Source: an uncultured Kiritimatiellota bacterium
GTDB taxonomy: Bacteria; Verrucomicrobiota; Kiritimatiellia; RFP12; DVOR01
Length of the DNA stretch: 64,000 nucleotides
Direction of reading: 5' to 3'
NCBI GenBank assembly: GCA_944391055.1
Contig: CALXSF010000001.1
Span: forward strand, 136,012-200,011
Positions 28,134 through 49,779 of the stretch are shown here, piece by piece. The notes beneath the pieces were generated by a model. It did not search any database. It was given only the letters and a program-made list of their open reading frames with translations, and was not told the DNA's origin. The first letter of the stretch is position 1. Each line of letters starts with the position of its first letter. The position numbers and the translations under genes were made by a program.

Positions 28134-28730
28134 ATGGCGATGCGGCGCGCGGCGGCGTTGGGGTTGATGGCGACGTGGCTGCTCTGCGGCTGCGCGGCGA
28201 CGATGGAGCGGTATGCGGATCCGGAGGCGCTGACGCTGCAAAGCCCGGTGGCGAACGCGCAGTCGCTGGACGTCCCCAAACGCTTCTTCGACGAGGAGTT
28301 GCCGGCGCGTTTCCAGCACAAGGGCATCGGCATCATCAACGACCAGGAGACCTTCCTGCGTTTCTGGTCGGCCTACACGACGGAGGCGACGGCGCTGCCG
28401 CCCTCCATCGATTTTGAGAACTTCGCGGTGCTTTTCGTCTATGACCCGGAGTATTACAACCGCGTCTTCATCCGCGGCCTGAATGTGTGGGAGGGCATCG
28501 CCAACCCCATCGTGGAGCGGACGAATTGGAAGCTGACCATCGGCGGCGACCCGAAGATGCGGGAGATCCGCCGTTTGCAGGGGTTGTCCGTGCCGGAGCC
28601 GAAGGTGAACGTGGGGTTGGTGGAGCTGCTGCGTAACAAGCCGGGGCGCCCGGGGGTGACGGCGGTGCTGGTGGAAGGGGCGGAGGATCCGGCCGAGAGC
28701 TTGGTGATCCCCGTCCCGGAGGGGCCTTGA
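28134..28730 (+). CDS. Hypothetical lipoprotein, weakly PrcB C-terminal-like
   Basis: Lipobox LLCGC; FW...LPPSIDFENFAVLFVY recalls the PrcB_C P.VDF motif. Confidence 0.45.
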   Translation: MAMRRAAALGLMATWLLCGCAATMERYADPEALTLQSPVANAQSLDVPKRFFDEELPARFQHKGIGIINDQETFLRFWSAYTTEATALPPSIDFENFAVLFVYDPEYYNRVFIRGLNVWEGIANPIVERTNWKLTIGGDPKMREIRRLQGLSVPEPKVNVGLVELLRNKPGRPGVTAVLVEGAEDPAESLVIPVPEGP

Positions 28731-29449
28731 TGCATCGTCAGCTCTCCTTCCGGCAGGCGTGCGAGCGGCTCCGTATCCCGGAGCAGACGTTGCGCGACGC
28801 GGTGAAATATGGCGAGGTCCCGTGCCGCAGGCAGGGCGACGAGGTGGTCTTTGACGCGGAGGCGCTGGCGGCGTGGGGGTCGCGGCGCATTTTGGCGTTG
28901 CGCCATCGCGACCTGCTCCCGGAGCACGCGGCCTCGACGCGCCTGGAGGCGCGCACGCCGGCGGAGGACACGCTTCTGCCGCAATTGCTGAAGCCCGCCT
29001 ACGTGGAGCTGGATTTCCGCGCGAAGACGCGCAAGAGCGTCATCCGCGACTTGGTGGAGATGGCCGATGGCCTGGAGCTGCTGTGCGACCCGGCGGATCT
29101 GCTGCGCCAGCTGGAGGAGCGCGAGGCCGTCTCGTCCACGGCGCTTCCGGGGGGCATCGCCCTGCCGCACCCGCACCATCCCGACCCTTACCTCATCATG
29201 GAGCCGTTCATGTTGGTGGCGCGCGCCCGCAAGCCGATTTGGTTCGGCGCGGACGACGACGCGCCGACCGACCTTTTCTGCCTGATTTGCTGTGGGGAGA
29301 ATATGCGCCACCTGCACGTGCTGGCGCGGCTCTGCATGATGATCCGCGAGACGGACTTCCTAGGGGAGGCCCGCGCGGCGGAGTCGCCGGAGGCGTTGGT
29401 GGAGGCGGCCTTCGCCGCCGAGCGCGCCGTCTTGGCGAAGTTGCGCTGA
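28727..29449 (+). CDS. Excisionase-like HTH fused to a PTS EIIA (Ntr/Fru type) domain
   Basis: N-terminal ACERLRIPEQTL...GEVPCRRQG...FD (HTH_17-like); C-terminal EREAVSSTALPGGIALPHP and HLHVLARL. Confidence 0.82.
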   Translation: MMHRQLSFRQACERLRIPEQTLRDAVKYGEVPCRRQGDEVVFDAEALAAWGSRRILALRHRDLLPEHAASTRLEARTPAEDTLLPQLLKPAYVELDFRAKTRKSVIRDLVEMADGLELLCDPADLLRQLEEREAVSSTALPGGIALPHPHHPDPYLIMEPFMLVARARKPIWFGADDDAPTDLFCLICCGENMRHLHVLARLCMMIRETDFLGEARAAESPEALVEAAFAAERAVLAKLR

Positions 29450-29526: not shown

Positions 29527-32500
29527 TTAAGTGTGCAACTCTTGGAGGGGCACGGGCGGGGGCGGGGCCTGGCGGAGGTTTTCCTCGATGCCCTCGACGG
29601 CGGCGAGGAAGCCTTGGAGGACGGTGGTGACGGGGAGGCCGCGAAGAAGCGCGGCGGAGCGGATGCGCAGGGCATCCTCGTTCGGGTCGGCGCCTGTCCC
29701 GGCGGTGTTGACGACCCAGTGGAGGGCGCCTTCGCGCAAGAGGTCGAGGGCGTTGGGACTGCCTTCGGCGAGGCGGAAGCAGGCGGCGGGGCGGAGCCCG
29801 GCGCGCCAGAGCGCGGTGGCGGTGCCGCGGGTGGCGACGAAACGGTAGCCAAGCGCGGCGAGCCGTTTGGCGGCGGCGACGCCGGCGGCCTTGTCGGCGT
29901 CGGCAAGGGCCAGGAGAAGCGTGGGGTGGGGGCGCTCGGGGGAGGGGAAGGGGAGGTTGGCGCCGGCGGCAAGCTGGCTTTTGAGGTAGGCGAGGCCGAC
30001 GGTGGGGGCGTGGCCCATGACCTCGCCGGTGGATTTCATCTCGGGGGTGAGGGCGACGTCCGCGCCAGGGAAACGGGCGAAGGGGAAGACGGCCTCCTTG
30101 GCGGCGAAGTGGCGGGGGACGCGTTCGGCGGGGAGGCCGGCCTCGGCGAGCGTCTGGCCGACCATGACGCGGGCGGCGACCGCGGCGAGGGAGACGCCGA
30201 TGGCCTTGGAGACGAAGGGGACGGTGCGGGAGGCGCGGGGGTTGACCTCAATCATGAAGATGTCGCGTCCGCGGACGGCCAACTGGAGGTTCATGAGGCC
30301 ACGGACGCGGAGGGCGCGGGCGAAGGCCTCGGCGTAGGCGCGGATACGGGCGAGCGTCTCGGGGTCGAGGGAGAGGGGCGGGGTGACGCAGGCGGCGTCG
30401 CCGGAGTGGACGCCGGCGGGCTCGACGTGCTCGAGGATGGCGCCGACGACGGTGCGGCCCTCGCCGTCGGTGACGGAATCGACGTCAAGCTCGATGGCGT
30501 TCTCCAGGAAGCGGTCGATGAGGATGGGTTTGCCTTCGGCGATGGCGACGGCCTGGCGGGCGAGGGCGTCGAGATCCTCGCGGCGATGGACGATGACCAT
30601 GCCGCGGCCGCCGAGGACGAAGGAGGGCCGGACGAGGACGGGATAGCCGATCGCGTCGGCGATGGCGAGGGCGTCCTCGGCGGAGTGGGCGATGCCGCTG
30701 GGCGGCTGAAGGATGCCAATCGCGTCGGCGAGGCGCTTGAAGCGGTCGCGATCCTCGGCGAGGTCGATGTCGTCGGGGCTGGTGCCGAGGATGGTGAGCC
30801 CGGCGGCCTTGAGGCTTTGGGCGAGGTTGAGGGGCGTCTGTCCGCCGAATTGGACGATGGCGCCGACGCAGCGCTCGCGTTCGTAGAGGGCGACGATGTC
30901 CTCAAGGGTGAGGGGCTCGAAGTAGAGGGCGTCGGAGGTGTCGTAGTCGGTGGAGACGGTCTCGGGGTTGGAATTGGCCATGACGACGCGATAGCCGAGG
31001 CCGCGGAGGGCGTAGGCGGCCTGGCAGCAGCAGTAGTCGAACTCGATGCCTTGGCCGATGCGGTTGGGGCCGCCGCCGATGATGAGGATGGCGGGTTTCC
31101 CCGAGGGCGGGAGGGGGCTTTGGGGGAGGGTGTAGGAGGCGTAGTAGTAGGGCGTCCGGGCGGCGAACTCGCCGGCGCAGGTGTCCACGAGGCCGTAGCC
31201 GGGGAGGACGCCCGCGGCGCGGCGCGCGGCGGCGACGGCGGCCTCGTCGGCGCCGAGGAGGTGGGCGATTTGACGGTCGGAGAAGCCGAAGGCCTTGGCT
31301 TGGCGGAGGCGGGCGGGGTCGGCGGCGAGCGCCTCGGGGGTGCGGGCGGCGGCGATCTCGTCCTCATAGAGGGCGAGTTCCTGGAGGTGGCGGAGGAAGT
31401 AGGGGTCGATGGCGGTGAGGGCGTGGAGGCGTTCGACGGCCCAGCCGCGGCGGAGGGCCTCGTGGATCTGGAAGAGGCGCTCGGCGGTGGGGCGGGCGAG
31501 CGCGGCGGCGAGGGCGTCGTCGGGGAGTTCGGCGAAGGCGTCGCGGCCGTCGGCGCCGAAGCCGGCGCGGCCGGTCTCGAGGGAGCGGAGGGCCTTTTGG
31601 AGGGCTTCCTGGAAGGTGCGGCCGATGGCCATGGCCTCGCCGACGGACTTCATCTGGGTGCCGAGGGTGTCGTCGGCGCCGTGGAACTTCTCGAAGGTGA
31701 AGCGGGGGGCCTTGACGACGACGTAGTCAAGGGCCGGCTCGAAGGAGGCTGGGGTGGTGCCGGTGATGTCGTTGCGGAGTTCGTCGAGGGTGTGGCCGAC
31801 GGCGAGGCGGGCGGCGATCTTGGCGATGGGGAAACCGGTGGCCTTGGAGGCGAGGGCGGAGGAGCGGGAGACGCGGGGGTTCATCTCGATGATGACGCGG
31901 CGGCCGGTCTTGGGGTCGACGGCCCATTGGACGTTGGAGCCGCCGGTGGCGATGCCGATGGCGCGCATGACGGCGAAGGAGTCGTCGCGCATGGCTTGGT
32001 ATTCGGCGTCGGAAAGGGTCTGGATGGGGGCGACGGTGACGGAGTCGCCGGTGTGGACGCCCATCGGGTCGAGGTTCTCGATGGAGCAGACGATGACGGC
32101 GTTGCCCTTGCGGTCGCAGACGACCTCCATCTCGAACTCCTTCCAGCCGAGGAGGGATTCCTCGATGAGGATCTCGGAGGTGGGGGAGGCGTCGAGGCCG
32201 GCCTGGGCGACGCGGTCGAAGTCGTCGGGCCCCTGCGCGATGCCGCCGCCGGTCCCGCCGAGCGTGAAGCCGGGGCGGACGATGAGGGGCCAGGAGGCGA
32301 TCTGCGCGGCGACGGCGCGGGCCTCCGCGAGGGTGTGGGCGGAGCCGGATTTGGGGACGTCGAGGCCGATGGCGAGCATGGCCTCCTTGAACTTCTGCCG
32401 ATCCTCCGCGCGGTCGATGGAGGCGGCGTTGGCGCCGATCATCTCCACGCCGTAACGGCCCAGGACGCCGCCGCGGAAGAGCGCCATCGCCAGGTTGAGG

Positions 32501-32784
32501 GCGGTCTGCCCGCCGAGGGTCGGGAGGAGGGCGTCGGGGCGTTCGCGGGCGATGATGGCCTCGAGGCTTTCGGGGGTGAGGGGCTCGACGTAGGTGCGGT
32601 CGGCGGTGGCCGGGTCGGTCATGATGGTGGCCGGGTTGGAGTTCACGAGGACGACCTCGTAGCCGTCGGCGCGGAGGGCTTTGCAGGCCTGCGTGCCGGA
32701 GTAGTCGAACTCGCACCCCTGGCCGATGACGATGGGGCCGGAGCCGATGAGGAGGATCTTGCGGATGTCTGTGCGCTTAGGCAT
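29527..32784 (-). CDS. carB: Carbamoyl-phosphate synthase large subunit
   Basis: [65 protein letters not shown] and [13 protein letters not shown], ending in an MGS domain. Confidence 0.97.
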
Positions 32785-34405
32785 GGTGCGTGTGCTCCTG
32801 GGCTTCGCGGTGGGCGAGCGCGGCGGCGAGGAAGCCGGCGAAGAGGGGGTGGGGCGCGCGGGGGCGGGACTTGAACTCGGGGTGGAACTGGCAGCCGACG
32901 AAGAAGGGGTGCGCGGGGAGCTCGACGACCTCGACGAGCCCGGTCTCGGGATTGGCCCCGGCGACGCGGAGCCCGGCCTGCTCGAGGGCCTCGCGGAAGG
33001 CGGGGTTGAACTCGTAGCGGTGGCGGTGGCGTTCGGAGACGCGCGCGGCGCCGTAGAGCGCGGCGGCGCGGGAGCCGGGCGCGAGGTCGCAGGCGTAGGC
33101 GCCCAGGCGCATGGTGCCGCCGAGGCCGCGGATGGCCTTTTGGCCTTCCATGAGGGCGATGACGGGGTGGGTGGTGTCGGGCGCGAACTCGGCGCTGTCG
33201 GCGTCGGCCCAGCCGAGGACGTCGCGGGCGAAGGCGATGACGGCGCATTGCATGCCCAGGCAGATGCCAAGGAAGGGGATGGCGGCCTCGCGGGCATGGG
33301 TGACGGCGCGGAACATGCCGAGGAGGCCGCGCCGGCCGAAGCCGCCCGGCACGAGGATGCCGTCGGCGCGGGCAAGGACGCGGGCGGGGTCGTCGCCCTC
33401 GAGCGCCTCGGATTCGACGCGCAGGATCTCCAGCTTGGCGTGGTGGGCCATGGCGGCGTGGGCGAGGGCCTCGTAGATGCTCTTGTAGGCGTCTTGGTGG
33501 CGGATGTATTTGCCGACGACGGCGATGGTGACGGGGCGCGTGGGGCGGAGGGCGCGGGCGAGCCAGGCGCGGTAGTCGCGCAGGTCGAGGGGGCGCGGGT
33601 CGAGGCGGAGGCAGCGGAGGGTCTGCTCGTCGAGGCGGCGCTGGGCGAGCTTGATGGGCACCTCGTGGATGGAGTGGCGGACGTCGAGCTCCTCGATGAC
33701 GCAGGCCTCGGGGACGTTGCAGAAGACGGCAAGCTTGCGCAGATGCTCGGGCTCGAGGCGGCGCTCGGCGCGGCAGACGAGGATGTCGGGCTGGATGCCG
33801 ATGTTGCGGAGCGTCCCGACGGATTGCTGCGAGGGCTTTGTCTTGAGCTCCTTGGCGGCCTTGAGGTAGGGGACGTAGGTGAGGTGGATGAAGAGGCAGT
33901 CGCCGGGGGGGCAGGAGAGGTGGAACTGCCGCGCGGCCTCGAGGAAGGGGAGGCTTTCGATGTCGCCGGCCGTGCCGCCGATCTCGGTGATGGCGATGTC
34001 GACGTCGGGGGCGTGGAGGGCGCGCATGGCGCGCTGGATCTCGTCGGTGACGTGCGGGATGACCTGGACGGTCGCGCCGAGGTATTCGCCCTTGCGCTCG
34101 CGGGCGATGACGGCGCCGTAGATCTTGCCGCTGGTGTAGTTGGAGGCCTTGGAGCAGGTGACGCCGGCGATGCGCTCGTAGTGGCCGAGGTCAAGGTCGG
34201 TCTCCGCGCCGTCGTCGGTGACGAAGACCTCGCCGTGTTGGTAGGGACTCATCGTGCCGGGGTCGACGTTGAGGTAGGGGTCGAGCTTCTGCATGGCCAC
34301 GCGGTAGCCGCGCTGGCGCAGGAGGAAGGCGAGGGCGGCGGCCGTGACGCCTTTGCCCAGGCTGCTGACGACGCCTCCGGTGACGAAGATGTGCTTGACG
34401 CTCAT
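32777..34405 (-). CDS. pyrG: CTP synthase
   Basis: [54 protein letters not shown] and QFHPEF. Confidence 0.97.
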
Positions 34406-35529
34406 TGGCGGGCCTCCATCAGGGCTGTGAAGGAACGGAAAAGGGACTGCGCCTCGCGCGGGCCGGGGGCGGCCTCGGGGTGGAACTGGACGGCGAAGGC
34501 GGGGAGCGCGCGGTGGCGGATGCCCTCGCAGGTGCCGTCGTTCAGGTTCACGTGGGTCTGCTCCAGGCAGTCGGGCAGGGCGCCGAGGGCGTAGTTGTGG
34601 TTCTGGCTGGTGATGGCGACCGTGCCGTCCAGAAGGTTCTTGACGGGGTGGTTGCAGCCGTGGTGGCCGAAGGGCAGGCGCTCGCACCGCGCCCCGCAGG
34701 CGAGGCCCAGCAGCTGGTGGCCCAGGCAGATGCCCATGAGCGGGACGCGGGCGGCGAGCAGCTCGCGCACCGCCTCCTGCGCGTAGGTGACGGCGGCGGG
34801 GTCGGCGGGGCCGTTGGAAAGGAAGACTCCGTCGGGCCGCCGCGCCAGCACCTCCGCCGCGGGCGTGGCCGCGGGCGTCACCTCCACGCGGCACCCTTCC
34901 GCGGCCAGGCGGCGGAGGATGTTGCGCTTCACGCCGAAATCATAGACCGTCACCCGGAAACGCCCCTCCGCGTTCCAGACATACGGCTCCGGCGCGGAGA
35001 CCCGCGCGGCGTAGTCCTGCCCGTCGAGCCCCGGCCACTCGCGGGCGCGCCGGATGGCCTCGGCCTCGTCGAGCGGGGCGTCCTCCACGTGGAGGTAGGC
35101 GCGTTGGGCGCCATGGTCGCGCAGATGGAGGGTGAGGGCGCGGGTGTCCACGCCGTAGATCCCCGGGCGCCCGCCGCGGAGGAGCGTCTCGCCAAGGCTC
35201 TCCGCGGCCCGGAAATTGCTGGGCGGATTGACGTTGCGCACCACGAGGCCGCTCAGGAAGAGCGCGCGGCTTTCGGCGTCCTCCGGGTTGCAGCCGTAGT
35301 TGCCGATCTCCGGCGCGGTGAGGACGACGAACTGCCCGGCGTAGGAGGGGTCGGTGAGGATCTCCTGGTAGCCGGTCATGCCGGTGTTGAAGACGGCCTC
35401 GCCGAGCGCGTCCTTGCGCGCCCCGAAGGCGACGCCGCGGAAGACGGCGCCGTCGGCGAGGGCAAGGAAGGCGGCCTGGGCGCGTTCGGCGGCCCATTTG
35501 CGGCGGAAGCGTTCAGTAAGCGCGTTCAT
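34402..35529 (-). CDS. carA: Carbamoyl-phosphate synthase small subunit
   Basis: [43 protein letters not shown] and [10 protein letters not shown]. Confidence 0.96.
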
Positions 35530-37246
35530 GGCGGTGCTCCATGTGGTTGACGAGGGCGCGGTTGGCCACCCGGTTGCCGCCGGGCGTGGGATAGTCGCCG
35601 GTGAAGTACCAGTCGCCCGCGTGGTTGGGGCAGCAGCGGCGCAGGTCGGCGACGGATTGGAAAATCACCCGCAGCTCGGCGCGGAGGGACTGCGGGCGGA
35701 GGCGCCGCGCGATGGCCCCGACCAGCCGATCCGTCGGCACGCGGTCGTAAAGCGTGCGCAGGACGTTCGCCTGGCGCCCCGGGGGCAGCGTCAGCTGCCG
35801 GCGGGCCTCGTCGTAGGCGGCGAGCAGGAGGCCCTCCGCCTTCTCCTCCCGCAGCACGTCCTCCAAGGCGTTGAAGGCGACCAGCTCGTCAAGCGTGGCC
35901 ATGTCGATGCCGTAACAGTCGGGGTAGCGGATCGGCGGGGCGCTGCTGGCGACGATGATGCGGCGGGGGCCCAGGCGGTCAAGGATGGGGAGGATGGCGT
36001 TGCGCATGGTGTTGCCGCGCACGATGGAGTCGTCGAGCACCACGAGCGTGTCGTCCGCGCGGACCAGGCCGTAGGTGACGTCGTAGACGTGCATGGCCAG
36101 GTCGTTGCGGGCGGCCTCGTCGGCGATGAAGGTGCGGAACTTGGCGTCCTTCACCGCCACCTGCCCGAAGCGCACCGTCCGCCCCTTCGTGGCGGCGATG
36201 CCCAGCAGCGTCTCGAGCAGGCCGTGGAAGCAGACCTGGGCGGAATTGGGGATGTAGCTGAGGAAGAGGCGGTCAAGGTCGCCGCCCAGGGCGCGGACGA
36301 TCTGCGGCGCGAGGGCGTGCCCCAAGCGTTTGCGCTCGGCGTGGATTTCCGCGTCGTTGGCCCGGGAGAAGTAGATGCGCTCGAAGACGCACGCCCGGCG
36401 CGGCGCGGGGTCCAGGCAGTCCTCGAGCGCCGCCGTGCCGTCGGGGCGGATGATGAGTGCCTTGCCGGGCGGCAGTTCGCGCACCGCGCCGGTCGGCACG
36501 TCGAAGGCCGCCTGGATGGCGGGGCGCTCGGAGGCGACGGCCACCGCCTCGTCGCCCTCCCACCAAAAGGCCGGGCGGATGCCGTGCGCGTCGCGCAGGG
36601 CGAAGGCCGTGCCGTCGCCGAGCGCCCCGCAGAGGACGAACGCGCCGTCGAAACGCGAGGCGGCCTCGCGCAGGACGTGCGCGAGGCCGCGGAACCCTTC
36701 GGGGCGGGCGTGCTCCCGCTCCAATGCGTGCGTGAGGCATTGGAGGATGACGGCGCCGTCGGCGAGGCTGGGCAGATGATGCCCGGAGGCGGCGAGCGCG
36801 TCGGCCAGGTCGCGCGTGTCGGTGAGGTTGAAGTTCCCCGCCAGCAGCAGGAGCCGGTCGAGGAAGGCGCTGTCGCGCACGAAGGGGTGGCAGGCGGCGA
36901 GGTCGTGTCGGCCGAAGGTGGCGTAGCGCAAATGGCCGAGGAAGAGCTCGCCGCGGAAGGCCGCGGGGTCCTCCGCCAAGCGCCGCCCGCAGCGCGACAC
37001 GAGGTCGGCCAAGGGGAGGGGGGCGACGGATTTCTCCAGGTCATAGCAGGGGCGCCCCTGACTGGGCCGGAGGTGGAGGCAGGCGAGCCCCGCGCCGTCC
37101 TGGCCGCGGTTGTGCTGTTTCTCCAGCATGAGCGCGGTTTTCTGGAAGCCGTAGGCCCGCGCGCCGTGCGCCTGCTCGTAATGGGCGGCGGGCCTCCTCA
37201 GGCGGAGGAGCGCCACGCCGCATTCGTGTTTGACCGCGTCGGACAT
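35513..37246 (-). CDS. purF: Amidophosphoribosyltransferase (long form resembling that of Bacteroidota)
   Basis: MSDAVKHECGVALLRL (Ntn Cys), KQHNRGQDGAG, GHLRYATFG, CVFERIYFSR, PRPP loop VVLDDSIVRGNT, RYPDCYGIDM and WYFTGDYPTPGG. Confidence 0.85.
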   Translation of the reverse strand: MSDAVKHECGVALLRLRRPAAHYEQAHGARAYGFQKTALMLEKQHNRGQDGAGLACLHLRPSQGRPCYDLEKSVAPLPLADLVSRCGRRLAEDPAAFRGELFLGHLRYATFGRHDLAACHPFVRDSAFLDRLLLLAGNFNLTDTRDLADALAASGHHLPSLADGAVILQCLTHALEREHARPEGFRGLAHVLREAASRFDGAFVLCGALGDGTAFALRDAHGIRPAFWWEGDEAVAVASERPAIQAAFDVPTGAVRELPPGKALIIRPDGTAALEDCLDPAPRRACVFERIYFSRANDAEIHAERKRLGHALAPQIVRALGGDLDRLFLSYIPNSAQVCFHGLLETLLGIAATKGRTVRFGQVAVKDAKFRTFIADEAARNDLAMHVYDVTYGLVRADDTLVVLDDSIVRGNTMRNAILPILDRLGPRRIIVASSAPPIRYPDCYGIDMATLDELVAFNALEDVLREEKAEGLLLAAYDEARRQLTLPPGRQANVLRTLYDRVPTDRLVGAIARRLRPQSLRAELRVIFQSVADLRRCCPNHAGDWYFTGDYPTPGGNRVANRALVNHMEHRHERAY

Positions 37247-37257
37247 TCCCGGGGGCC

Positions 37258-39324
37258 TCAGTAGACGAAGAGCATGTCGCGGTATTTCGGGAGCGGCCAG
37301 CGCGCGTCGTCCACGTCTTCCTCCAGTTTGTCCACCGTCGCGCGCAGGGCCGCCAAGGCGTCGAGGATGGCCGCCGGCGAATCGCCCAGCGCGCGTTCCA
37401 GCGCGGCGCATTGCGCGTGGAGGGCGTCGAGGCCGCGGCCCAGGGTCTCGGCCACGTCGCGCACGCTCGCGACGCCGGGCTCGACGCCGATCGCCCGCGC
37501 GGCCTCGACGGCCTTGCAGACGGCCCCGAACTCGGCGGTCGCCGCGGGTTCGATCATGCTCCGGGCCATCTCCAGCGCCGCCTTCCCCTCAATGGTCACC
37601 TTGCGCTCGTACTCCTCCATGAAGACGTCGTGGCGGCTTTCCATCTCGGTGGGCAGGAGGACGCCCTCCTTGGCGAAGAGGTCGAGGTTCTTCTGCGCGA
37701 GCATCGGGGCGAGGGCCTCGGGCGTCGTGCGGAGGTTGGGCAGCCCGCGGCGCGCGGCCTCGGCGACCCATTCGTCGGAGTAGCCGTCGCCGTTGAAGAT
37801 GACGCGGCGGTGGTCTTTGATGACGGCCTGGAGGATTTTCTGGAGGCCGTCGTTGAACTTTTCCTTCGGGAGCTTGCCGATGGCGTCGGCCAGGACGTCC
37901 ATGCTTTCGGCGACGATGGTGTTGAGCACCATGCAGACGCCCGCGCAGTTCTGGCTGGAGCCGGGGGCGCGGAACTCGAACTTGTTGCCCGTGAAGGCGA
38001 AGGGCGAGGTGCGGTTGCGGTCGGTCGCGTCGCGCGGCAGGGGCGGCAGGGTGTCCACGCCCACGCGCAGGGTGGGGGTCTGGCCGCCGGCGGCGCGGGA
38101 ACCTTTCTCGATGCGGTCGATCACGCCGGTCAGCTCGTCGCCCAGGAAGATGGAGAGGATGGAGGGCGGGGCCTCGTTCGCGCCGAGGCGGTGGTCGTTG
38201 CCCGCGCCGGCGGTGGCGGCGCGCAGGATGTCGGCGTGCAGATCCACCGCGCGGATGACGCTTGCCAGCACGGCGAGGAAGATGGCGTTGTCCTGCGGGT
38301 TCTTGCCGGGGTCGAGGAGGTTCTTGCCGTTGTAGGCCACGGACCAGTTGTTGTGCTTGCCGCTGCCGTTCACCCCGGCGAAGGGCTTCTCGTGGAGCAG
38401 GCAGACGAAGCCGTGGCGGTCGGCCACGTTGCGGAGCGTCTCCATGATGAGCATGTTGTGGTCGACGGCCAGGTTGAGCTCCTCGAACATCGGCGCCAGC
38501 TCGAACTGCGCCGGGGCCACCTCGTTGTGGCGCGTCTTCGCGGGGATGCCCAGGCGCCAAAGCTCCCGCTCCACCTCCTCCATGAAGGCGATGACGCGTG
38601 GCTTGATGGAGCCGAAATAGTGGTCTTCCAGCTGCTGGTGCCGCGCGGGCGGCGCGCCGAAGAGCGTCCGGCCGCACTGGATCAGGTCGGGGCGCTTGAG
38701 ATAGAAGGCCTTGTCGATGAGGAAATATTCCTGCTCCGGGCCGAGCGTGCAGACGACGCGGCCGTCCGCGGGTTCGCCGAAGCACGCCATCAGCCGCCGA
38801 ACGGCCTTTTCCATCGCCTGCATCGAGCGCAGGAGCGGCGTCTTCTTGTCCAGCACCTCGCCGGTGTACGAGCAGAAGACCGTCGGGATGCAGAGCGTGG
38901 CGCCGTTGGCGTGGCGTTTGATGAAGGCCGGGCTCGTGACGTCCCAGGCCGTGTAGCCGCGCGCCTCGAAGGTCCGCCGCAGGCCGCCGCTGGGGAAGCT
39001 CGAGGCGTCCGGCTCGCCCATGATCAGGTTCTTGCCCGAGAAGCGCGCCAAGGTCTGCCCCACGCCCATGGGCTCGAAGAAGGCGTCGTGCTTCTCCGCC
39101 GTGCTGCCCGTGAGCGGCTGGAACCAGTGGGTGAAGTGCGTCGCCCCGCGCGCCATCGCCCATTGCTTGAGCGCGTGGGCCACCTCGTTGGCGATCGCGG
39201 GATCCAACGGCGCGTGGTCGCGCATCGTGTGCAGCAACGCCTCCGCCGTGTCCTTGGCCAGATACTCACGCATGACGCCCTCGTTGAAGACGTCCGTGCC
39301 GTATTCGATGTCCGTGTTGTCCAT
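37258..39324 (-). CDS. glnA: Glutamine synthetase type III
   Basis: GATHFTHWFQPLTG, AEKHD, EPDASSFPSGGLR, HNEVAP, HEKPFAGVNGSGKHNNW, HRLGANEAPP and DRNRTSPFAFTGNKFEFR. Confidence 0.96.
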   Translation of the reverse strand: MDNTDIEYGTDVFNEGVMREYLAKDTAEALLHTMRDHAPLDPAIANEVAHALKQWAMARGATHFTHWFQPLTGSTAEKHDAFFEPMGVGQTLARFSGKNLIMGEPDASSFPSGGLRRTFEARGYTAWDVTSPAFIKRHANGATLCIPTVFCSYTGEVLDKKTPLLRSMQAMEKAVRRLMACFGEPADGRVVCTLGPEQEYFLIDKAFYLKRPDLIQCGRTLFGAPPARHQQLEDHYFGSIKPRVIAFMEEVERELWRLGIPAKTRHNEVAPAQFELAPMFEELNLAVDHNMLIMETLRNVADRHGFVCLLHEKPFAGVNGSGKHNNWSVAYNGKNLLDPGKNPQDNAIFLAVLASVIRAVDLHADILRAATAGAGNDHRLGANEAPPSILSIFLGDELTGVIDRIEKGSRAAGGQTPTLRVGVDTLPPLPRDATDRNRTSPFAFTGNKFEFRAPGSSQNCAGVCMVLNTIVAESMDVLADAIGKLPKEKFNDGLQKILQAVIKDHRRVIFNGDGYSDEWVAEAARRGLPNLRTTPEALAPMLAQKNLDLFAKEGVLLPTEMESRHDVFMEEYERKVTIEGKAALEMARSMIEPAATAEFGAVCKAVEAARAIGVEPGVASVRDVAETLGRGLDALHAQCAALERALGDSPAAILDALAALRATVDKLEEDVDDARWPLPKYRDMLFVY

Positions 39325-39381
39325 GCTTTCTCCGGGTTGTGGCCCCCGCGCAAACCGTCCGGGCGCCATCCGCCCCTTTGT

Positions 39382-39397
39382 TGCAACCGCCGTGCCA
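39382..39397 (-). promoter_or_regulatory. Sigma54 (-24/-12) promoter for the glnA operon
   Basis: Minus strand TGGCAC-GGCGG-TTGCA (GG-N10-GC), about 58 nt upstream of the glnA ATG; GGAGA RBS present. Confidence 0.85.
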
Positions 39398-39539
39398 AAT
39401 GTCTTTCTTTGGCGGAAAAGCGGCCGTCGTGCCCGCCGACGCCGCCAAGTCACGTTACATTTCTTTCCTTCGGGGCCACGCCCTGGGCACGCGCCATCCA
39501 AACTAACCGACTATCGCCCAGCGTCTTCGATGTGGCTCT

Positions 39540-39582
39540 ATACAAATCTGTAAGCGTCGGGCGGCCTTTTACAACCTTGTAA
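39540..39582. promoter_or_regulatory. Two palindromic WTACA-N4-TGTAA sites; candidate enhancer (bEBP) binding sites
   Basis: ATACA-AATC-TGTAA at 39540-39553 and TTACA-ACCT-TGTAA at 39569-39582, AT-rich within a GC-rich genome. Confidence 0.6.
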
Positions 39583-39672
39583 TGGCCTGTGTCTGCCTTT
39601 GCCCCCCTTCCTCCCCGCTCTTATCGTCCGGGGGACCATTTCTTTGCGCGCAGACGCCCCGCGCCGAGCCGC

Positions 39673-39688
39673 TGGCATGGGATTTGCA
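39673..39688 (+). promoter_or_regulatory. Sigma54 (-24/-12) promoter for gltB
   Basis: TGGCAT-GGGAT-TTGCA (GG-N10-GC), 35 nt upstream of ATG 39724; AAGGA RBS present. Confidence 0.82.
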
Positions 39689-39723
39689 ACAAGTCGGCGA
39701 TGCCAACAAAGGAACGACGCACC

Positions 39724-44052
<4,329 letters not shown>

Positions 44053-46676: not shown

Positions 46677-48656
46677 TCAGACGCCGGAGTAGGCCAGGAA
46701 GCCGCCGTCGACGGGGATGACGATGCCGGTGACGAAGGAGGCGTCGTCGGAGACGAGGTAGCGCACGGCGCCGCAGAGGTCGCCGGGCTGGCCGAATTTG
46801 CGCATGGGGGTCTTGGCGATGACCTTGTTGCCGCGGGCGGTGAGGGTCTTGCCGTCGGGCTCGAGCATGAGGAAGCGGTTTTGGTTGGTGATGAAGAAGC
46901 CGGGGGCGATGGCGTTGACGCGCACGCCCATGGGGGCGAGGTGTGTGGCGAGCCAGCGGGTGAAGTTCTCGATGGAGGCCTTGGCGGCGGCGTAGGCGGC
47001 GACCTTGGTGAGGGGCTGCGTGGCGGCCATCGAGGAGATGTTGACGATGGCGCCGCCGCGGCCGAGCATCTCTTTGGCGAAGACCTGCGAGGGGAGGAGG
47101 GTGCCGATGAAGTTGAGGCGGTTGACGAACTCGAAGCCTTCGATGTCGAGGCCGAAGAAGGTGTCCTCGAGCTTGGCCTCTGGGGTCATCTGCTCGGCGG
47201 CGCAGGTGCCTTTGGGGTGGTTGCCGCCGGCGCCGTTGATGAGGATGTCGACGCGGCCCCACTTCGCGAGGACGGCGTCGCGCGCGGCCTCGAGGGAGGC
47301 GCGGTCGAGGACGTTCGCGGCGAGGGGGAGTGTCTCGGTGAGGCCCTTGGCGGCGAGGGCTTGGGCGAAGGCCTGGGCCTTCTCGCCGTGGAGGTCGAGG
47401 AGGGCGACCTTGGCGCCGTGGCGGAGGAAGTCTTCGGTCATCACGGAACAGAGGACGCCGGCCGCGCCGGTGACGACGACGATCTTGCCGTCGAGGTCGG
47501 TGCCGTGGACAAGGCCATATTCGAGGCCGCGGAGCTCGGCGAGGCCGACGAGGCGCCCGCCGTAGGAGTAGCCGCTGTAGCAGGTGCGGCCCTTGTCGAT
47601 CTCCATGAGCCGGCCGTGGTCGGGGCGGACGACGATCTGCTCGCCGCGGCGGGCCTCTTCGTCGAGGAGGAGGCGCATGAGGCGGGGCATGTCGACCTTG
47701 CCGCAGAGGTGGCAGCCGGATTCGTGGAAGGTGCCGCCCTCGGCGTAGACGACGTTGCGGAAGTGGACGAAATGGACGCGGCGGGCGAATTCGCGGAAGA
47801 TGGCGACCTCGTCGTTGGCACGGCCGCCGCCGAGGGAGCCGGTGCAGAGGGTCAGGCCCATGTTCTCGCTGGGCACCTTGGCGCACAGCTCGCGGATGTC
47901 GTCGGCGTCGGAGAGGATGCGGGGGAGGCCGAAGAGCGGGCGCGGGGGGTCGTCGGGGTGGATGGCCATGCGCACGCCGAGCTCCTCGCAGAGGGGGGCC
48001 AGTTCGTTGAGGAAGGCGTAGAGGTTGGCGCGGAGCTGGGCGTCGCCGACGCCCTCGTAGGTCTTGAGGAGGTCGCGGAAGCCTTCGACCGTGAGGTCGT
48101 CCACCGTGCCGGGAAGGCCGAGAAGGATGCCTTTGGAGGTCTTTTCGAGAAGGGCGGGGTCGGCGGCGTCGAACCAGGCTTTGGCCTTGGCCCGGAGCTC
48201 GGGGGCGTAGTCGCCCTCGGCGCCGGGGCGTTTGAGGACGAAGAGGTCGAAGGCCGCAACGGCCACCTCGTCGAAGTTCAGCACGCTGGAACCGTCGGGG
48301 AGCGGATAGTCGAGCTGGCTGCGCGTCCAGTCGAGGATCGGCATGAAGTTGTAGCAGACGACCTTGATGCCGCAGGCGGCCAGGTTGCGGAGCGTCTGCT
48401 TGTAGTTGTCGATGTACGCCTGGAAGTCGCCGGTGCGCGTCTTGATGCTTTCATGGACGGGGACGCTTTCGACGACCGTCCACGCCATGCCGGCGGCGCG
48501 GACGGCCTCCTGCCGCGCACGGATCTCCTCGATGGGCCAGACCTCGCCGCACCGGCGCTCGTAGAGGGCGGCCACCACGTCGGTGACGCCCGCTTGGCGG
48601 ATTTCCTTCAGTGAGATGGGGTCTTGTGTGCCGAACCAACGCCAGCCTTGCTTCAT
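46677..48656 (-). CDS. uxuA: Fusion of mannonate dehydratase (UxuA) and an SDR-type D-mannonate oxidoreductase (UxuB-like)
   Basis: N-terminal WRWFG, VVESVPVHE, CYNFMP.LDWTR, IHPDDPP, LCTGSLG and RPDHG; C-terminal VVTGAAG, LINGAGGN, NISSM, YAAAK and VRVNAIAPGFF, all in one 659-aa ORF. Confidence 0.9.
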   Translation of the reverse strand: MKQGWRWFGTQDPISLKEIRQAGVTDVVAALYERRCGEVWPIEEIRARQEAVRAAGMAWTVVESVPVHESIKTRTGDFQAYIDNYKQTLRNLAACGIKVVCYNFMPILDWTRSQLDYPLPDGSSVLNFDEVAVAAFDLFVLKRPGAEGDYAPELRAKAKAWFDAADPALLEKTSKGILLGLPGTVDDLTVEGFRDLLKTYEGVGDAQLRANLYAFLNELAPLCEELGVRMAIHPDDPPRPLFGLPRILSDADDIRELCAKVPSENMGLTLCTGSLGGGRANDEVAIFREFARRVHFVHFRNVVYAEGGTFHESGCHLCGKVDMPRLMRLLLDEEARRGEQIVVRPDHGRLMEIDKGRTCYSGYSYGGRLVGLAELRGLEYGLVHGTDLDGKIVVVTGAAGVLCSVMTEDFLRHGAKVALLDLHGEKAQAFAQALAAKGLTETLPLAANVLDRASLEAARDAVLAKWGRVDILINGAGGNHPKGTCAAEQMTPEAKLEDTFFGLDIEGFEFVNRLNFIGTLLPSQVFAKEMLGRGGAIVNISSMAATQPLTKVAAYAAAKASIENFTRWLATHLAPMGVRVNAIAPGFFITNQNRFLMLEPDGKTLTARGNKVIAKTPMRKFGQPGDLCGAVRYLVSDDASFVTGIVIPVDGGFLAYSGV

Positions 48657-48678
48657 GACGTGCCGCTCCTTGCCTTGC

Positions 48679-49779
48679 TCAACGGTCCACGCGGGCGGAA
48701 CCGCCGCCCACCAGTTTCTCGACCTCGGCCAACGTGGCCATCGAGGTGTCGCCCGGCGTGGTCATGGCCAACGCCCCATGCGCCGCGCCGTACTCCACCG
48801 CCGCCGCGGGGTCGCCTTTCGTCAGGAGCCCGTAGATGAGGCCGGAGGCGAAGCTGTCGCCGCCGCCCACGCGGTCCAGGATTTCCAGCCCGGGGCGTTG
48901 GGTGGCCTCGTGGAACCGGCCGTCGGCCCAGCAAATGGCGCCCCAGTCGTTCACGGTGGCGGTCTTCACCGCGCGGAGGGTGGTGGCGACGACCTTGAAG
49001 TTGGGGTAGGCCTTGACGGCCTCGCCGATCATGCGTTTGAAGCCGTCGATGGGCAGTGCCGTGAGGTTTTTGTCCACGCCCGGCACCTCCAGGCCGAGGG
49101 CGGCGGTGAAGTCCTCCTCGTTGCCGATCATGACGTCGACGTACTGCGCCAGCTCGCGGTTTACCTCGCGGGCGTGCTCCTGGCCGCCGTTGCCTTTCCA
49201 GAGCGAGGGGCGGTAATTCAGGTCATAGGAGGTGACGACACCGTTGCACTTGGCGGCCTTGAGGGCCTCGATGGCCACCTCGGGCGTGGTGCCCGAGAGC
49301 CCGGCGAAGATGCCGCCGGTGTGGAACCAGCGCACGCCCTCGCCGCCGAAGAGCGCGTCCCAGTCCACGTCGCCGGTGCGCAGGGCGGCGACGGCGGTGT
49401 GGCCGCGGTCGGAGCAGCCCCGCGCGCCGCGCACGCCAAAGCCGCGCTCGGTGAAGTTCAGCCCGTTGCGGACGTTCCAGCCCACGCCGTCATAGGGCAT
49501 CCAGCGGATATGCGAGGCGTCGACCCCGCCTTGGAGGATGAAGTCCTCGACCAACCGCCCCACGGGGTTGTCGGCCAGCGCCGTCACCACCGAGGCGCGC
49601 ATGCCGAAGCAACGGCGCAGGCCGCGCGCCACGTTGTACTCGCCGCCGCCCTCCCAGACGGTGAACTGCCGCGTGGTGTGGATGCGCCCCTCGCCGGGAT
49701 CCAGGCGCAGCATCACCTCGCCCAACGAAACAATGTCCCAACGGCAGGAGGCCGCCGGCTTCACGTCGATAATCGCCAT
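48679..49779 (-). CDS. kdgK: 2-keto-3-deoxygluconate kinase (PfkB family)
   Basis: LGEVMLRL, GGGEYNVA, SYDLNYRPSLW, GNEEDF and DRVGGGDSFASG. Confidence 0.85.
   Translation of the reverse strand: MAIIDVKPAASCRWDIVSLGEVMLRLDPGEGRIHTTRQFTVWEGGGEYNVARGLRRCFGMRASVVTALADNPVGRLVEDFILQGGVDASHIRWMPYDGVGWNVRNGLNFTERGFGVRGARGCSDRGHTAVAALRTGDVDWDALFGGEGVRWFHTGGIFAGLSGTTPEVAIEALKAAKCNGVVTSYDLNYRPSLWKGNGGQEHAREVNRELAQYVDVMIGNEEDFTAALGLEVPGVDKNLTALPIDGFKRMIGEAVKAYPNFKVVATTLRAVKTATVNDWGAICWADGRFHEATQRPGLEILDRVGGGDSFASGLIYGLLTKGDPAAAVEYGAAHGALAMTTPGDTSMATLAEVEKLVGGGSARVDR

What the first reader, a model, noticed from the sequence alone, without database searches (positions are those of the whole stretch)
39382..39688. 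Back-to-back consensus sigma54 promoters driving GS type III and GOGAT
The 399-nt divergent region contains a perfect TGGCAC-N5-TTGCA facing glnA and TGGCAT-N5-TTGCA facing gltB, each at a sensible distance from an RBS and ATG. Sigma54 control of glnA is classical in Proteobacteria. Sigma54 control of a GSIII together with gltB in a PVC anaerobe suggests an undescribed Ntr-like regulon. It predicts rpoN and an NtrC-family activator elsewhere in the genome.
Basis: partly seen in the sequence, partly recalled or inferred. Interest (0 to 1): 0.7.

Follow-up and report, generated by a model that had tools for sequence, protein, structure and literature searches.

The report
Back-to-back sigma-54 promoters for glnA/gltB
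The gap between the glutamine synthetase and glutamate synthase genes of this uncultured gut bacterium holds two real-looking sigma-54 promoters facing outwards and a shared pair of activator-binding sites, a layout also found in Victivallis and other relatives, so it is an ordinary kind of nitrogen switch with a probably different activator.

Summary
TGGCACGGCGGTTGCA (39397-39382, minus strand) and TGGCATGGGATTTGCA (39673-39688, plus strand) are the only two exact TGGCAY-N5-TTGCW matches in 64 kb (0.07 expected). They face outwards in the 399-nt gap between a type III glutamine synthetase gene (glnA) and gltB.

The same back-to-back pair occurs in Victivallis vadensis, uncultured Lentisphaeria, Kiritimatiellia and Opitutales, although the surrounding spacer DNA does not align. 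GSIII loci labelled Clostridia, Lachnospiraceae or Collinsella lack it.

Between the promoters lie two dyads, ATACAAATCTGTAA and TTACAACCTTGTAA, 29 bp apart. They are the only two such sites in the window. A blind metagenome scan for this dyad pair retrieved glnA, gltB, PII-linked and GlnD-like loci. Sigma-54 motifs were 48-fold denser beside the dyads than elsewhere in those loci.

In V. vadensis and three other loci, a GAF-AAA+-HTH (NifA-like) activator gene lies at or near the end of the gltB gene array. I therefore read this as an Ntr-like GS/GOGAT switch that probably uses a one-component GAF activator rather than NtrBC.

Not shown: rpoN and the activator in this genome (absent from about 83 kb examined), and any transcription start site. 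It is a new variant of a known kind, of moderate interest.

The parts
39382..39397 (-). Sigma-54 type -24/-12 promoter of glnA: TGGCACGGCGGTTGCA, 11/11 consensus positions. Predicted transcription start about 39371, leader about 47 nt.
   Evidence: conserved equivalents in L013, L010, L009, L007, L015, L208, L205 and L209
39673..39688 (+). Sigma-54 type -24/-12 promoter of gltB: TGGCATGGGATTTGCA, 10/11 consensus positions. Predicted transcription start about 39699, leader about 25 nt.
   Evidence: equivalents facing gltB in L013, L010, L009, L205 and L209, weaker in L001, L108 and L208
39540..39553 (.). Dyad 1, ATACAAATCTGTAA (one mismatch to TTACA-N4-TGTAA). Candidate enhancer (activator-binding) site, centred about -153 from the predicted gltB start and about -176 from the predicted glnA start.
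   Evidence: 2 sites in 64 kb, 0.05 expected; conserved paired dyads in relatives
39569..39582 (.). Dyad 2, TTACAACCTTGTAA (perfect). It lies 29 bp from dyad 1, centred about -124 from the predicted gltB start and about -205 from the predicted glnA start.
   Evidence: pairs spaced 29-33 bp in L004, L005, L013, L108, L205, L208 and L209
37258..39324 (-). glnA, type III glutamine synthetase (688 aa).
   Evidence: GSIII_N 6e-74, Gln-synt_C, Gln-synt_C-ter; the exact protein is called on the source contigs
35513..37246 (-). Class-II glutamine amidotransferase, distantly PurF-like (577 aa). It starts 11 nt after the glnA stop.
   Evidence: syntenic in L001, L007, L008, L010 and L013
34402..35529 (-). 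carA (carbamoyl-phosphate synthase small, glutamine-hydrolysing subunit). Its start overlaps the end of the previous gene.
32777..34405 (-). pyrG (CTP synthase). ATGA start/stop overlap with carA.
29527..32784 (-). carB (carbamoyl-phosphate synthase large subunit). Its start overlaps the pyrG stop. It is the last gene of the tightly packed glnA array.
39724..44052 (+). gltB, glutamate synthase large subunit (1442 aa). No gltD or activator gene follows it in this genome.
   Evidence: downstream genes

Best explanation
The 399-nt spacer is a bidirectional, enhancer-dependent control region for ammonium assimilation. RNA polymerase carrying sigma-54 would bind the two outward-facing -24/-12 elements as closed complexes. 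One drives glnA (GSIII) and, probably as a single operon, the PurF-like amidotransferase, carA, pyrG and carB. The other drives gltB.

A single pair of TTACA-N4-TGTAA dyads, 29 bp apart and about 120-205 bp upstream of both predicted starts, would serve as the shared enhancer. An AAA+ activator would assemble there, loop to either promoter and open it by ATP hydrolysis.

By analogy with relatives, the activator is most likely a roughly 510-aa GAF-AAA+-Fis-type-HTH protein. It is NifA-like and has no receiver domain, so the nitrogen signal would be read directly by the GAF domain or through a partner such as PII, not through an NtrB-NtrC phosphorelay.

Shown: the motifs, their rarity, their conservation, the co-occurrence of dyads with promoters, and the linkage of the activator gene to the module in relatives.
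Inferred: sigma-54 dependence, operon extent, that the dyads are activator sites, the activator's identity in this genome, and the signal sensed.
For: - Rarity: two exact -24/-12 matches against 0.07 expected, both in one spacer, facing outwards at sensible distances from an RBS and ATG. Two dyad matches against 0.05 expected, both in the same spacer.
- No sigma-70-like promoter in the spacer.
- Conservation without alignable background. The spacer of the closest relative, L013 (GSIII 86% identical), does not align with the window's. It still has TGGCACGCCTCTTGCA facing glnA, TGGCACGGCTCTTGCA facing gltB and three TTTTACAAAAATGTAAAA dyads.
- The same back-to-back arrangement occurs in L010 (Kiritimatiellia), L009 (Opitutales, with the dyad variant ACGACA-N4-TGTCGT), L001 (Lentisphaeria), L108, L208, the L205-type human-gut contigs and Victivallis vadensis L209.
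- Among 80 GSIII loci, motifs scoring at least 10/11 upstream of glnA occur in records labelled Lentisphaeria, Kiritimatiellia, Opitutales and Akkermansia, two high-GC records with implausible labels (L007, L013), one Omnitrophota and one Geobacteraceae. None occurs in loci labelled Clostridia, Lachnospiraceae, Ruminococcus or Collinsella.
- A blind metagenome scan for the dyad pair gave 26 of 120 loci with an outward-facing sigma-54 motif within 400 bp, covering 16 distinct dyad sequences. Motif density was 0.43 per kb beside the dyads against 0.009 per kb elsewhere in the same loci. The genes downstream were GSIII glnA, GSI glnA, gltB and GlnD-like, and many loci carried PII.
- Activator linkage: glnA<->gltB-gltD-dapF-aminotransferase-[GAF activator] in V. 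vadensis. The same gltB-to-activator gene order occurs in Victivallaceae BBE-744-WT-12, where glnA is off the locus. glnA<->gltB-gltD-activator occurs in L208, and L108 has the activator about 1.7 kb after gltB.
- Short homologues with a closely similar C-terminal HTH region (GNMSAAxRxLxxSPRxxxYK) sit directly beside the dyad pair and glnA in at least 12 Fibrobacter-like loci.
- The glnA array is translationally coupled: an 11-nt gap, then overlapping stop/start codons.
Against: - No rpoN and no Sigma54_activat gene was found in the 64-kb window or in about 19 kb of additional contig. The two essential trans-acting factors are therefore unproven for this organism.
- In this genome gltB is not followed by gltD or an activator gene, unlike Victivallis.
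- Dyad 1 has a mismatch.
- Some Fibrobacter-like homologues have GAFIGA or GAFLGA instead of GAFTGA, and no -24/-12 motif precedes their glnA. The dyad-binding protein therefore does not always work through sigma-54.
- A few dyad-pair hits drive genes with no obvious nitrogen role (L182, L196).
- No transcript or binding data exist.
Confidence: 0.72

Rival explanations
1. The promoters are sigma-54 dependent, but they are activated by a classical two-component NtrB/NtrC system: a REC-AAA+-HTH response regulator encoded elsewhere in the genome.
For: This is the textbook arrangement for glnA in Proteobacteria (established knowledge; PMC3162934). The activator of this genome was not found, so its domain make-up is unknown. 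No activator gene lies within the 10-kb loci of the closest relatives L013, L010 and L009.
Against: Every activator gene found physically linked to the module has either a GAF domain or no sensor domain, never REC. The spacer has no GCAC-N7-9-GTGC (NtrC-like) site. The conserved dyad TTACA-N4-TGTAA differs from the enteric NtrC site.
Confidence: 0.15
2. The dyads are operators for a sigma-54-independent dimeric regulator (repressor or class I activator), and the enhancer for the sigma-54 promoters is elsewhere or absent.
For: In Fibrobacter-like loci the dyads occur without a recognisable -24/-12 motif, and next to homologues with a degenerate GAFTGA motif. In L076 a dyad lies just downstream of a sigma-54 motif.
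Against: The dyads lie 120-205 bp upstream of both predicted starts, in pairs spaced about three helical turns apart. That fits an enhancer, not an operator. Sigma-54 motifs are 48-fold enriched beside dyad pairs. The gene adjacent to the dyads is a homologue of sigma-54 activators.
Confidence: 0.08
3. The two -24/-12 matches are chance or non-functional relics, and glnA and gltB are transcribed from unrecognised housekeeping promoters.
For: PVC housekeeping promoters are poorly defined, so the negative sigma-70 scan is weak evidence. No rpoN was found in the sequence available.
Against: Two matches against 0.07 expected. Orientation and position are correct. The motifs are kept in at least eight other taxa whose spacers do not otherwise align.
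Confidence: 0.04

Closest known systems
Enterobacterial glnAp2 / NtrBC system
   Same: A sigma-54 -24/-12 promoter drives glutamine synthetase. Two activator sites about three helical turns apart lie more than 100 bp upstream (NtrC sites near -140 and -108 in E. coli; my own knowledge). An AAA+ activator is needed for open-complex formation.
   Different: The enzyme here is GSIII, not GSI. gltB is controlled from the same spacer. The site is TTACA-N4-TGTAA, not TGCACC-N5-GGTGCA. The activators linked to the module in relatives have a GAF domain instead of a phosphorylated receiver.
Geobacter sulfurreducens RpoN regulon (PMC2725144)
   Same: It lies outside the enteric paradigm. RpoN-dependent promoters were shown or predicted for both glutamine synthetase (glnB-glnA, by primer extension) and the GOGAT operon.
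   Different: GS is type I there. The genes are not divergent, and a shared enhancer or GAF activator is not described in the passages I read.
NifA (TIGR01817), the GAF-AAA+-HTH activator of nif genes
   Same: It is the best-scoring family for the linked activators, with the same three-domain architecture. One homologue (L023) passes the equivalog cutoff (534 against 528.85 bits).
   Different: The L108-type protein scores below the cutoff (463 bits). The targets are glnA and gltB. I did not check whether the host genomes carry nif genes. The NifA site TGT-N10-ACA is absent from the spacer, and the recognition-helix region differs from that of the L023 and L189 proteins.
Divergent sigma-54 operon pairs with a shared enhancer (E. 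coli zraP/zraSR and hyc/hyp; my own knowledge, not checked here)
   Same: Two outward-facing sigma-54 promoters have the activator's binding sites between them. In Victivallis the activator gene lies within one of the two transcription units, as zraR does.
   Different: The regulon (nitrogen assimilation), the sensor domain and the DNA motif all differ.

Membership tests
Sigma-54 (RpoN) dependent promoter | GG and GC doublets exactly 10 bp apart within the TGGCAC-N5-TTGCW consensus | tested here: met
   Scores of 11/11 and 10/11. These are the only two exact matches in 64 kb, against 0.07 expected.
Sigma-54 (RpoN) dependent promoter | Correct orientation and a plausible distance to the RBS and start codon of a gene | tested here: met
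   The -12 C lies 58 nt from the glnA ATG and 36 nt from the gltB ATG. Both motifs face their genes.
Sigma-54 (RpoN) dependent promoter | Conservation at orthologous genes in related genomes | tested here: met
   Seen in L013, L010, L009, L007, L015, L205, L208 and L209, and more weakly in L001 and L108. The spacers are otherwise unalignable.
Sigma-54 (RpoN) dependent promoter | rpoN present in the same genome | not testable with these tools
   The source is a 212,857-bp metagenome contig, of which only about 83 kb could be read. No RpoN-box ORF or Sigma54 domain was found there.
Sigma-54 (RpoN) dependent promoter | Cognate AAA+ enhancer-binding protein with GAFTGA in the same genome | not testable with these tools
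   None was found in the sequence available. It is present and linked to the module in V. vadensis, Victivallaceae BBE-744-WT-12, L108 and L208.
Sigma-54 (RpoN) dependent promoter | Upstream enhancer sites about 80-200 bp from the promoter | tested here: met
   A paired dyad is centred 124-205 bp upstream of the two predicted starts. That it binds the activator is an inference.
Sigma-54 (RpoN) dependent promoter | Transcription start 11-13 nt downstream of the GC, dependent on rpoN | not testable with these tools
   No transcript data are available.
Classical NtrB/NtrC regulon | Activator is a REC-AAA+-HTH response regulator paired with the NtrB kinase | tested here: inconclusive
   The activator of this genome is unknown. 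Linked activators in relatives have GAF or no sensor domain, not REC.
Classical NtrB/NtrC regulon | NtrC-type binding sites (TGCACC-N5-GGTGCA) upstream of glnA | tested here: not met
   No GCAC-N7-9-GTGC occurs in 39325-39723 on either strand.
NifA family (TIGR01817) regulon | Activator passes the NifA equivalog cutoff | tested here: inconclusive
   L023 scores 534.2 (passes 528.85). The L108-type protein scores 462.8 and the Fibrobacter-like short form 313, both below the cutoff.
NifA family (TIGR01817) regulon | UAS of the form TGT-N10-ACA | tested here: not met
   None is present in the spacer.

The most novel reading that the evidence does not exclude
A single-component nitrogen regulator replaces NtrBC across Lentisphaerota, Kiritimatiellota, parts of Verrucomicrobiota and Planctomycetota, with a sensor-less offshoot in Fibrobacterota. 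It is a NifA-like GAF-AAA+-HTH protein with the recognition region GNMSAAAR-L-LSPR(V/M)(I/M)HY. It would bind pairs of TTACA-N4-TGTAA dyads and fire back-to-back sigma-54 promoters for GSIII and GOGAT. In Victivallis it would activate its own synthesis from the end of the gltB operon. Neither the regulator's role nor its DNA motif appears in the literature I could search.
Probability: 0.45. Interest if true: 0.6.

Novelty: new variant of a known kind. Interest (0 to 1): 0.5.

Why it matters
Nitrogen control in PVC bacteria, including gut Lentisphaerae and Kiritimatiellae, is essentially uncharted. A 2025 survey of predicted sigma-54 regulons reports glutamine synthetase control mainly in Pseudomonadota and does not cover Lentisphaerae (PMC12316311).

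This locus and its relatives give a concrete, testable model: defined promoters, a defined enhancer motif, a candidate activator family and a cultured organism (Victivallis vadensis) that carries all the parts in one 10-kb stretch. If confirmed, the model would allow reconstruction of nitrogen regulons in thousands of metagenome-assembled genomes. It would also add a GAF-sensing alternative to the NtrBC phosphorelay for GS/GOGAT control. It does not change the general picture of how sigma-54 works.

Tried and rejected
- Rfam scans of the spacer and of the long L001 leader found nothing, so there is no evidence for a glutamine riboswitch or other known RNA.
- The sigma-70 promoter scan of the spacer found none.
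- Searches for NtrC, NifA, NtcA, TnrA/GlnR and IHF consensus sites in the spacer found none.
- Global alignment of the spacer with that of the closest relative is uninformative. The regions do not align, and the motifs were found only by pattern.
- I looked for rpoN and the activator in the source organism. I annotated about 38 ORFs of the window with Pfam, scanned six frames for GAFTGA, ESELFGH and the RpoN box, and extended about 8-10 kb past each window end on the source contig. None was found.
- I tried to pick the organism's own activator among 120 homologues by amino-acid composition. Two candidates came from other samples.
- PII (GlnB) is not in the window or the added flanks.
- I first took the human-gut L205-type contigs for Akkermansia. 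Their GSIII is closest to a Lentisphaeria record (67%), so I dropped that label.
- Literature searches for sigma-54 with GSIII or PVC phyla, and for the dyad written in several ways, found no description.

Full report
**1. What is in the sequence**

The window has 70% G+C. At 37258-39324 on the minus strand it encodes a 688-aa type III glutamine synthetase (GSIII_N, Gln-synt_C, Gln-synt_C-ter). At 39724-44052 on the plus strand it encodes a 1442-aa glutamate synthase large subunit (four GOGAT domains; NCBIfam 1581 bits).

The spacer between the two start codons is 39325-39723, exactly 399 nt. It contains TGGCACGGCGGTTGCA on the minus strand (39397 to 39382) and TGGCATGGGATTTGCA on the plus strand (39673-39688). 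These are the only exact matches to TGGCAY-N5-TTGCW in 64 kb. The expectation is 0.07, and no shuffle gave two. One further one-mismatch site lies inside ftsH and is at chance level.

Taking the C of the GC as -12, the transcription starts would fall near 39371 and 39699, giving leaders of about 47 and 25 nt. The spacer has no sigma-70-like promoter and no Rfam match.

**2. Where the sequence comes from**

The exact GSIII protein is encoded on ENA metagenome contigs, among them BRZ_EL__NODE_71 (212,857 bp). The window is positions 8081-72080 of that contig, reversed.

The closest GSIII locus in the species-level genome collection is 86% identical (L013). That record is 63% G+C and carries an implausible Agathobacter label. 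Next come an uncultured Lentisphaeria (70%), Victivallaceae (63-64%) and Kiritimatiellia (61-62%). 'PVC bacterium from a gut-type habitat' is a fair description. 'Anaerobe' is an inference.

**3. The glnA side is a long operon**

Four genes follow glnA on the minus strand: a 577-aa class-II amidotransferase (distantly PurF-like), carA, pyrG and carB. The junctions are an 11-nt gap and then overlapping stop and start codons. Terminator-like hairpins across the array were at the level expected from shuffles, and none lies at a gene junction.

The promoter therefore probably drives one glutamine-producing enzyme and four genes for glutamine-consuming enzymes. The order glnA-amidotransferase-carA-pyrG, divergent from gltB, is kept in L013, L001 and L010.

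**4. Are the promoters real? Comparative evidence**

The spacer of L013 does not align with that of the window. It nevertheless has TGGCACGCCTCTTGCA facing glnA and TGGCACGGCTCTTGCA facing gltB.

Back-to-back motifs scoring 10-11 of 11 also flank the glnA/gltB spacer in these loci:
- L010 (Kiritimatiellia)
- L009 (Opitutales)
- the L205-type human-gut contigs
- Victivallis vadensis L209

The gltB-side motif is weaker (9/11) in L001, L108 and L208.

Among 80 GSIII loci, a motif of at least 10/11 within 400 nt upstream of glnA occurs in eight. They are labelled Lentisphaeria, Kiritimatiellia, Opitutales, Akkermansia, Omnitrophota and Geobacteraceae, plus the two mislabelled high-GC records L007 and L013. 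No locus labelled Clostridia, Lachnospiraceae, Ruminococcus or Collinsella has one. From the shuffle rates, about 0.5 such sites would be expected by chance across all 80 upstream regions.

**5. A conserved enhancer-like element**

Between the promoters lie ATACAAATCTGTAA (39540-39553) and TTACAACCTTGTAA (39569-39582), 29 bp apart. They are the only two matches to TTACA-N4-TGTAA (one mismatch allowed) in the window, against 0.05 expected.

Equivalent dyads in the relatives:

| Locus | Dyads |
|---|---|
| L013 | three copies of TTTTACAAAAATGTAAAA, two of them 30 bp apart |
| V. vadensis (L209) | two, 32 bp apart |
| L205-type contigs | two, 33 bp apart |
| L108 and L208 | two each, 31-32 bp apart |
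| L015 (labelled Akkermansia) | three |
| L001 | one, plus a partial second copy |
| L009 | the variant ACGACA-N4-TGTCGT, twice, 30 bp apart |
| L010, L007, L008 (L010 and L008 labelled Kiritimatiellia) | look-alikes with a 5-nt centre |

In the window the dyad centres lie about 124 and 153 bp upstream of the predicted gltB start, and about 176 and 205 bp upstream of the predicted glnA start. That geometry fits a shared enhancer.

**6. An independent test of the dyad**

I scanned the JGI metagenome collection for two TTACA-N4-TGTAA dyads separated by 12-20 nt, with no other condition. Many of the 120 loci returned are unrelated repeats.

Even so, 26 loci (16 distinct dyad sequences) have an outward-facing sigma-54 motif within 400 bp. 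Motif density is 0.43 per kb there against 0.009 per kb elsewhere in the same loci.

The first ORFs downstream of those promoters are GSIII glnA, a GSI glnA, gltB and proteins of about 870 aa whose N-termini look like GlnD (not checked with a profile). There are also a few others, including a P5C-dehydrogenase-like and a CobA-like protein, both identified only by eye. tblastn finds GSIII, GltB or PII in about 30 of the 120 loci. The dyad pair is thus a marker of nitrogen-assimilation loci well beyond this window.

**7. Which activator?**

Evidence from Fibrobacter-like loci:
- In at least twelve of them, a 345-430-aa sigma-54-activator homologue without a sensor domain is encoded directly beside the dyad pair, and in most of those loci GSIII glnA lies on the other side of the pair.

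Evidence from PVC loci:
- L108 and L208 carry a roughly 515-aa GAF-AAA+-HTH protein near the end of the gltB(-gltD) array, divergent from glnA.
- Victivallaceae BBE-744-WT-12 has gltB-gltD-dapF-aminotransferase-activator.
- Victivallis vadensis has the whole unit: glnA, a 264-bp spacer, then gltB-gltD-dapF-aminotransferase-activator. Its spacer contains both promoters and both dyads.

The short and GAF forms share a closely similar C-terminal helix-turn-helix region, GNMSAAxRxLxxSPRxxxYK. The family is about 60% identical across Victivallis, Lentisphaeria and Planctomycetia records. Its best NCBIfam match is NifA, below the equivalog cutoff for the L108 type.

I infer that this family binds the dyads. 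In Victivallis that would make a positive autoregulatory loop. The spacer contains no NtrC-like, NifA-like, NtcA, TnrA/GlnR or IHF consensus site.

**8. What is missing**

Neither rpoN nor any sigma-54 activator is encoded in the window or in the roughly 19 kb of contig I could add. In this genome gltB is followed by an LmeA-like gene, not by gltD and the activator. I could not reach the rest of the contig or the bin. The two trans-acting factors are therefore a prediction for this organism, supported only by relatives.

Some Fibrobacter-like homologues carry GAFIGA or GAFLGA, and I see no -24/-12 motif at their glnA. In that phylum the same DNA-binding module may act without sigma-54. This weakens a simple equation of 'dyad' with 'sigma-54 enhancer'.

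**9. Comparison with what is known**

Functionally this works like enteric glnAp2 with NtrC: a sigma-54 promoter with paired upstream activator sites. This is established knowledge.

Sigma-54 control of both GS and GOGAT has been reported in Geobacter sulfurreducens (PMC2725144). A 2025 survey of predicted regulons finds glutamine synthetase under sigma-54 mainly in Pseudomonadota, with nitrogen functions fading in other classes. It does not mention Lentisphaerae (PMC12316311).

I found no paper on sigma-54 and GSIII in PVC bacteria, and none on the dyad. The library I searched lacks most subscription journals, so this absence is weak evidence.

Membership as a sigma-54 promoter is met for every cis feature that I could test. 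Membership in the classical NtrBC regulon fails on the binding-site feature and is doubtful on activator architecture. Membership in the NifA regulon fails on the UAS feature.

**10. Verdict**

The promoters are almost certainly functional elements. The interpretation as an Ntr-like regulon is supported, with one amendment: the activator is probably a one-component NifA-like GAF protein that recognises a TTACA-N4-TGTAA dyad pair.

It is a new variant of a well-known kind of system. It is of moderate interest, mainly because it supplies a ready-made model for nitrogen control in poorly studied phyla that can be tested in a cultured organism.

Noticed in passing
window 29527-39324 (-): glnA heads a tightly coupled five-gene array: glnA, a PurF-like class-II amidotransferase, carA, pyrG and carB. 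The junctions are an 11-nt gap and then overlapping stop/start codons. The glutamine-making enzyme is thus grouped with glutamine-using enzymes. The order as far as pyrG is conserved in L001, L010 and L013.
   Followed up: partly
window 28637-29449 (+): The ORF combines an excisionase-type HTH_17 domain with a PTS EIIA-2 domain that weakly resembles the nitrogen-PTS protein PtsN (53 bits against a cutoff of 139). It lies just beyond the carB end of the glnA gene array, on the opposite strand.
   Followed up: no
window 55524-58136 (+): An 869-aa protein has a hydrazine-synthase-alpha middle domain (HZS_alpha, 3e-29) and weak PD40 and cytochrome c matches. The genome shows no other sign of anammox.
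   Followed up: no
window 59236-61989 (+): FtsH (AAA plus Peptidase_M41) is fused in frame to a cytidylate kinase domain. The source contig calls it as one 917-aa gene.
   Followed up: no
window 46677-48761 (-): D-mannonate dehydratase (UxuA) is fused to a short-chain dehydrogenase domain in one ORF. It sits within a uxaC-kdgA-kdgK-like hexuronate cluster.
   Followed up: no
L001 3630-3908: In the Lentisphaeria relative, the -12 GC of the sigma-54 motif lies 264 nt upstream of the glnA start. The leader carries two copies of GGTCCTGCGGAGCAGGTA(G/C)CCGAG. No Rfam family matches, so it may be an undescribed leader element.
   Followed up: partly
L004 2623-3705, L005 2384-3523, and L093, L095, L116, L119, L130, L137, L163, L187, L188, L192: Fibrobacter-like loci encode short sigma-54-activator homologues without a sensor domain, next to the dyad pair and in most cases GSIII glnA. 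Several have GAFIGA or GAFLGA instead of GAFTGA, and no -24/-12 motif is visible at glnA in L004 and L005. They may be sigma-54-independent descendants of the family.
   Followed up: partly
L106, L162, L193, L124, L184, L189, L200: Proteins of about 870-885 aa whose N-termini look like GlnD (PII uridylyltransferase) are preceded by a sigma-54 motif and the same dyad pair, and PII genes occur in the same loci. They come from lower-GC metagenome contigs of unknown taxonomy. The motif may therefore extend beyond PVC and Fibrobacter-like bacteria.
   Followed up: partly
L007 about 2080-2130: A short tandem repeat, about five copies of ACTTAACC, lies upstream of the glnA promoter in a 69% G+C relative.
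   Followed up: no
L013 and L007 record titles: The two high-GC relatives are deposited as 'Agathobacter rectalis' and 'Clostridiales bacterium CCNA10'. Those labels clash with their 63-69% G+C and PVC-like gene content, which suggests mis-binned or mislabelled MAGs.
   Followed up: no
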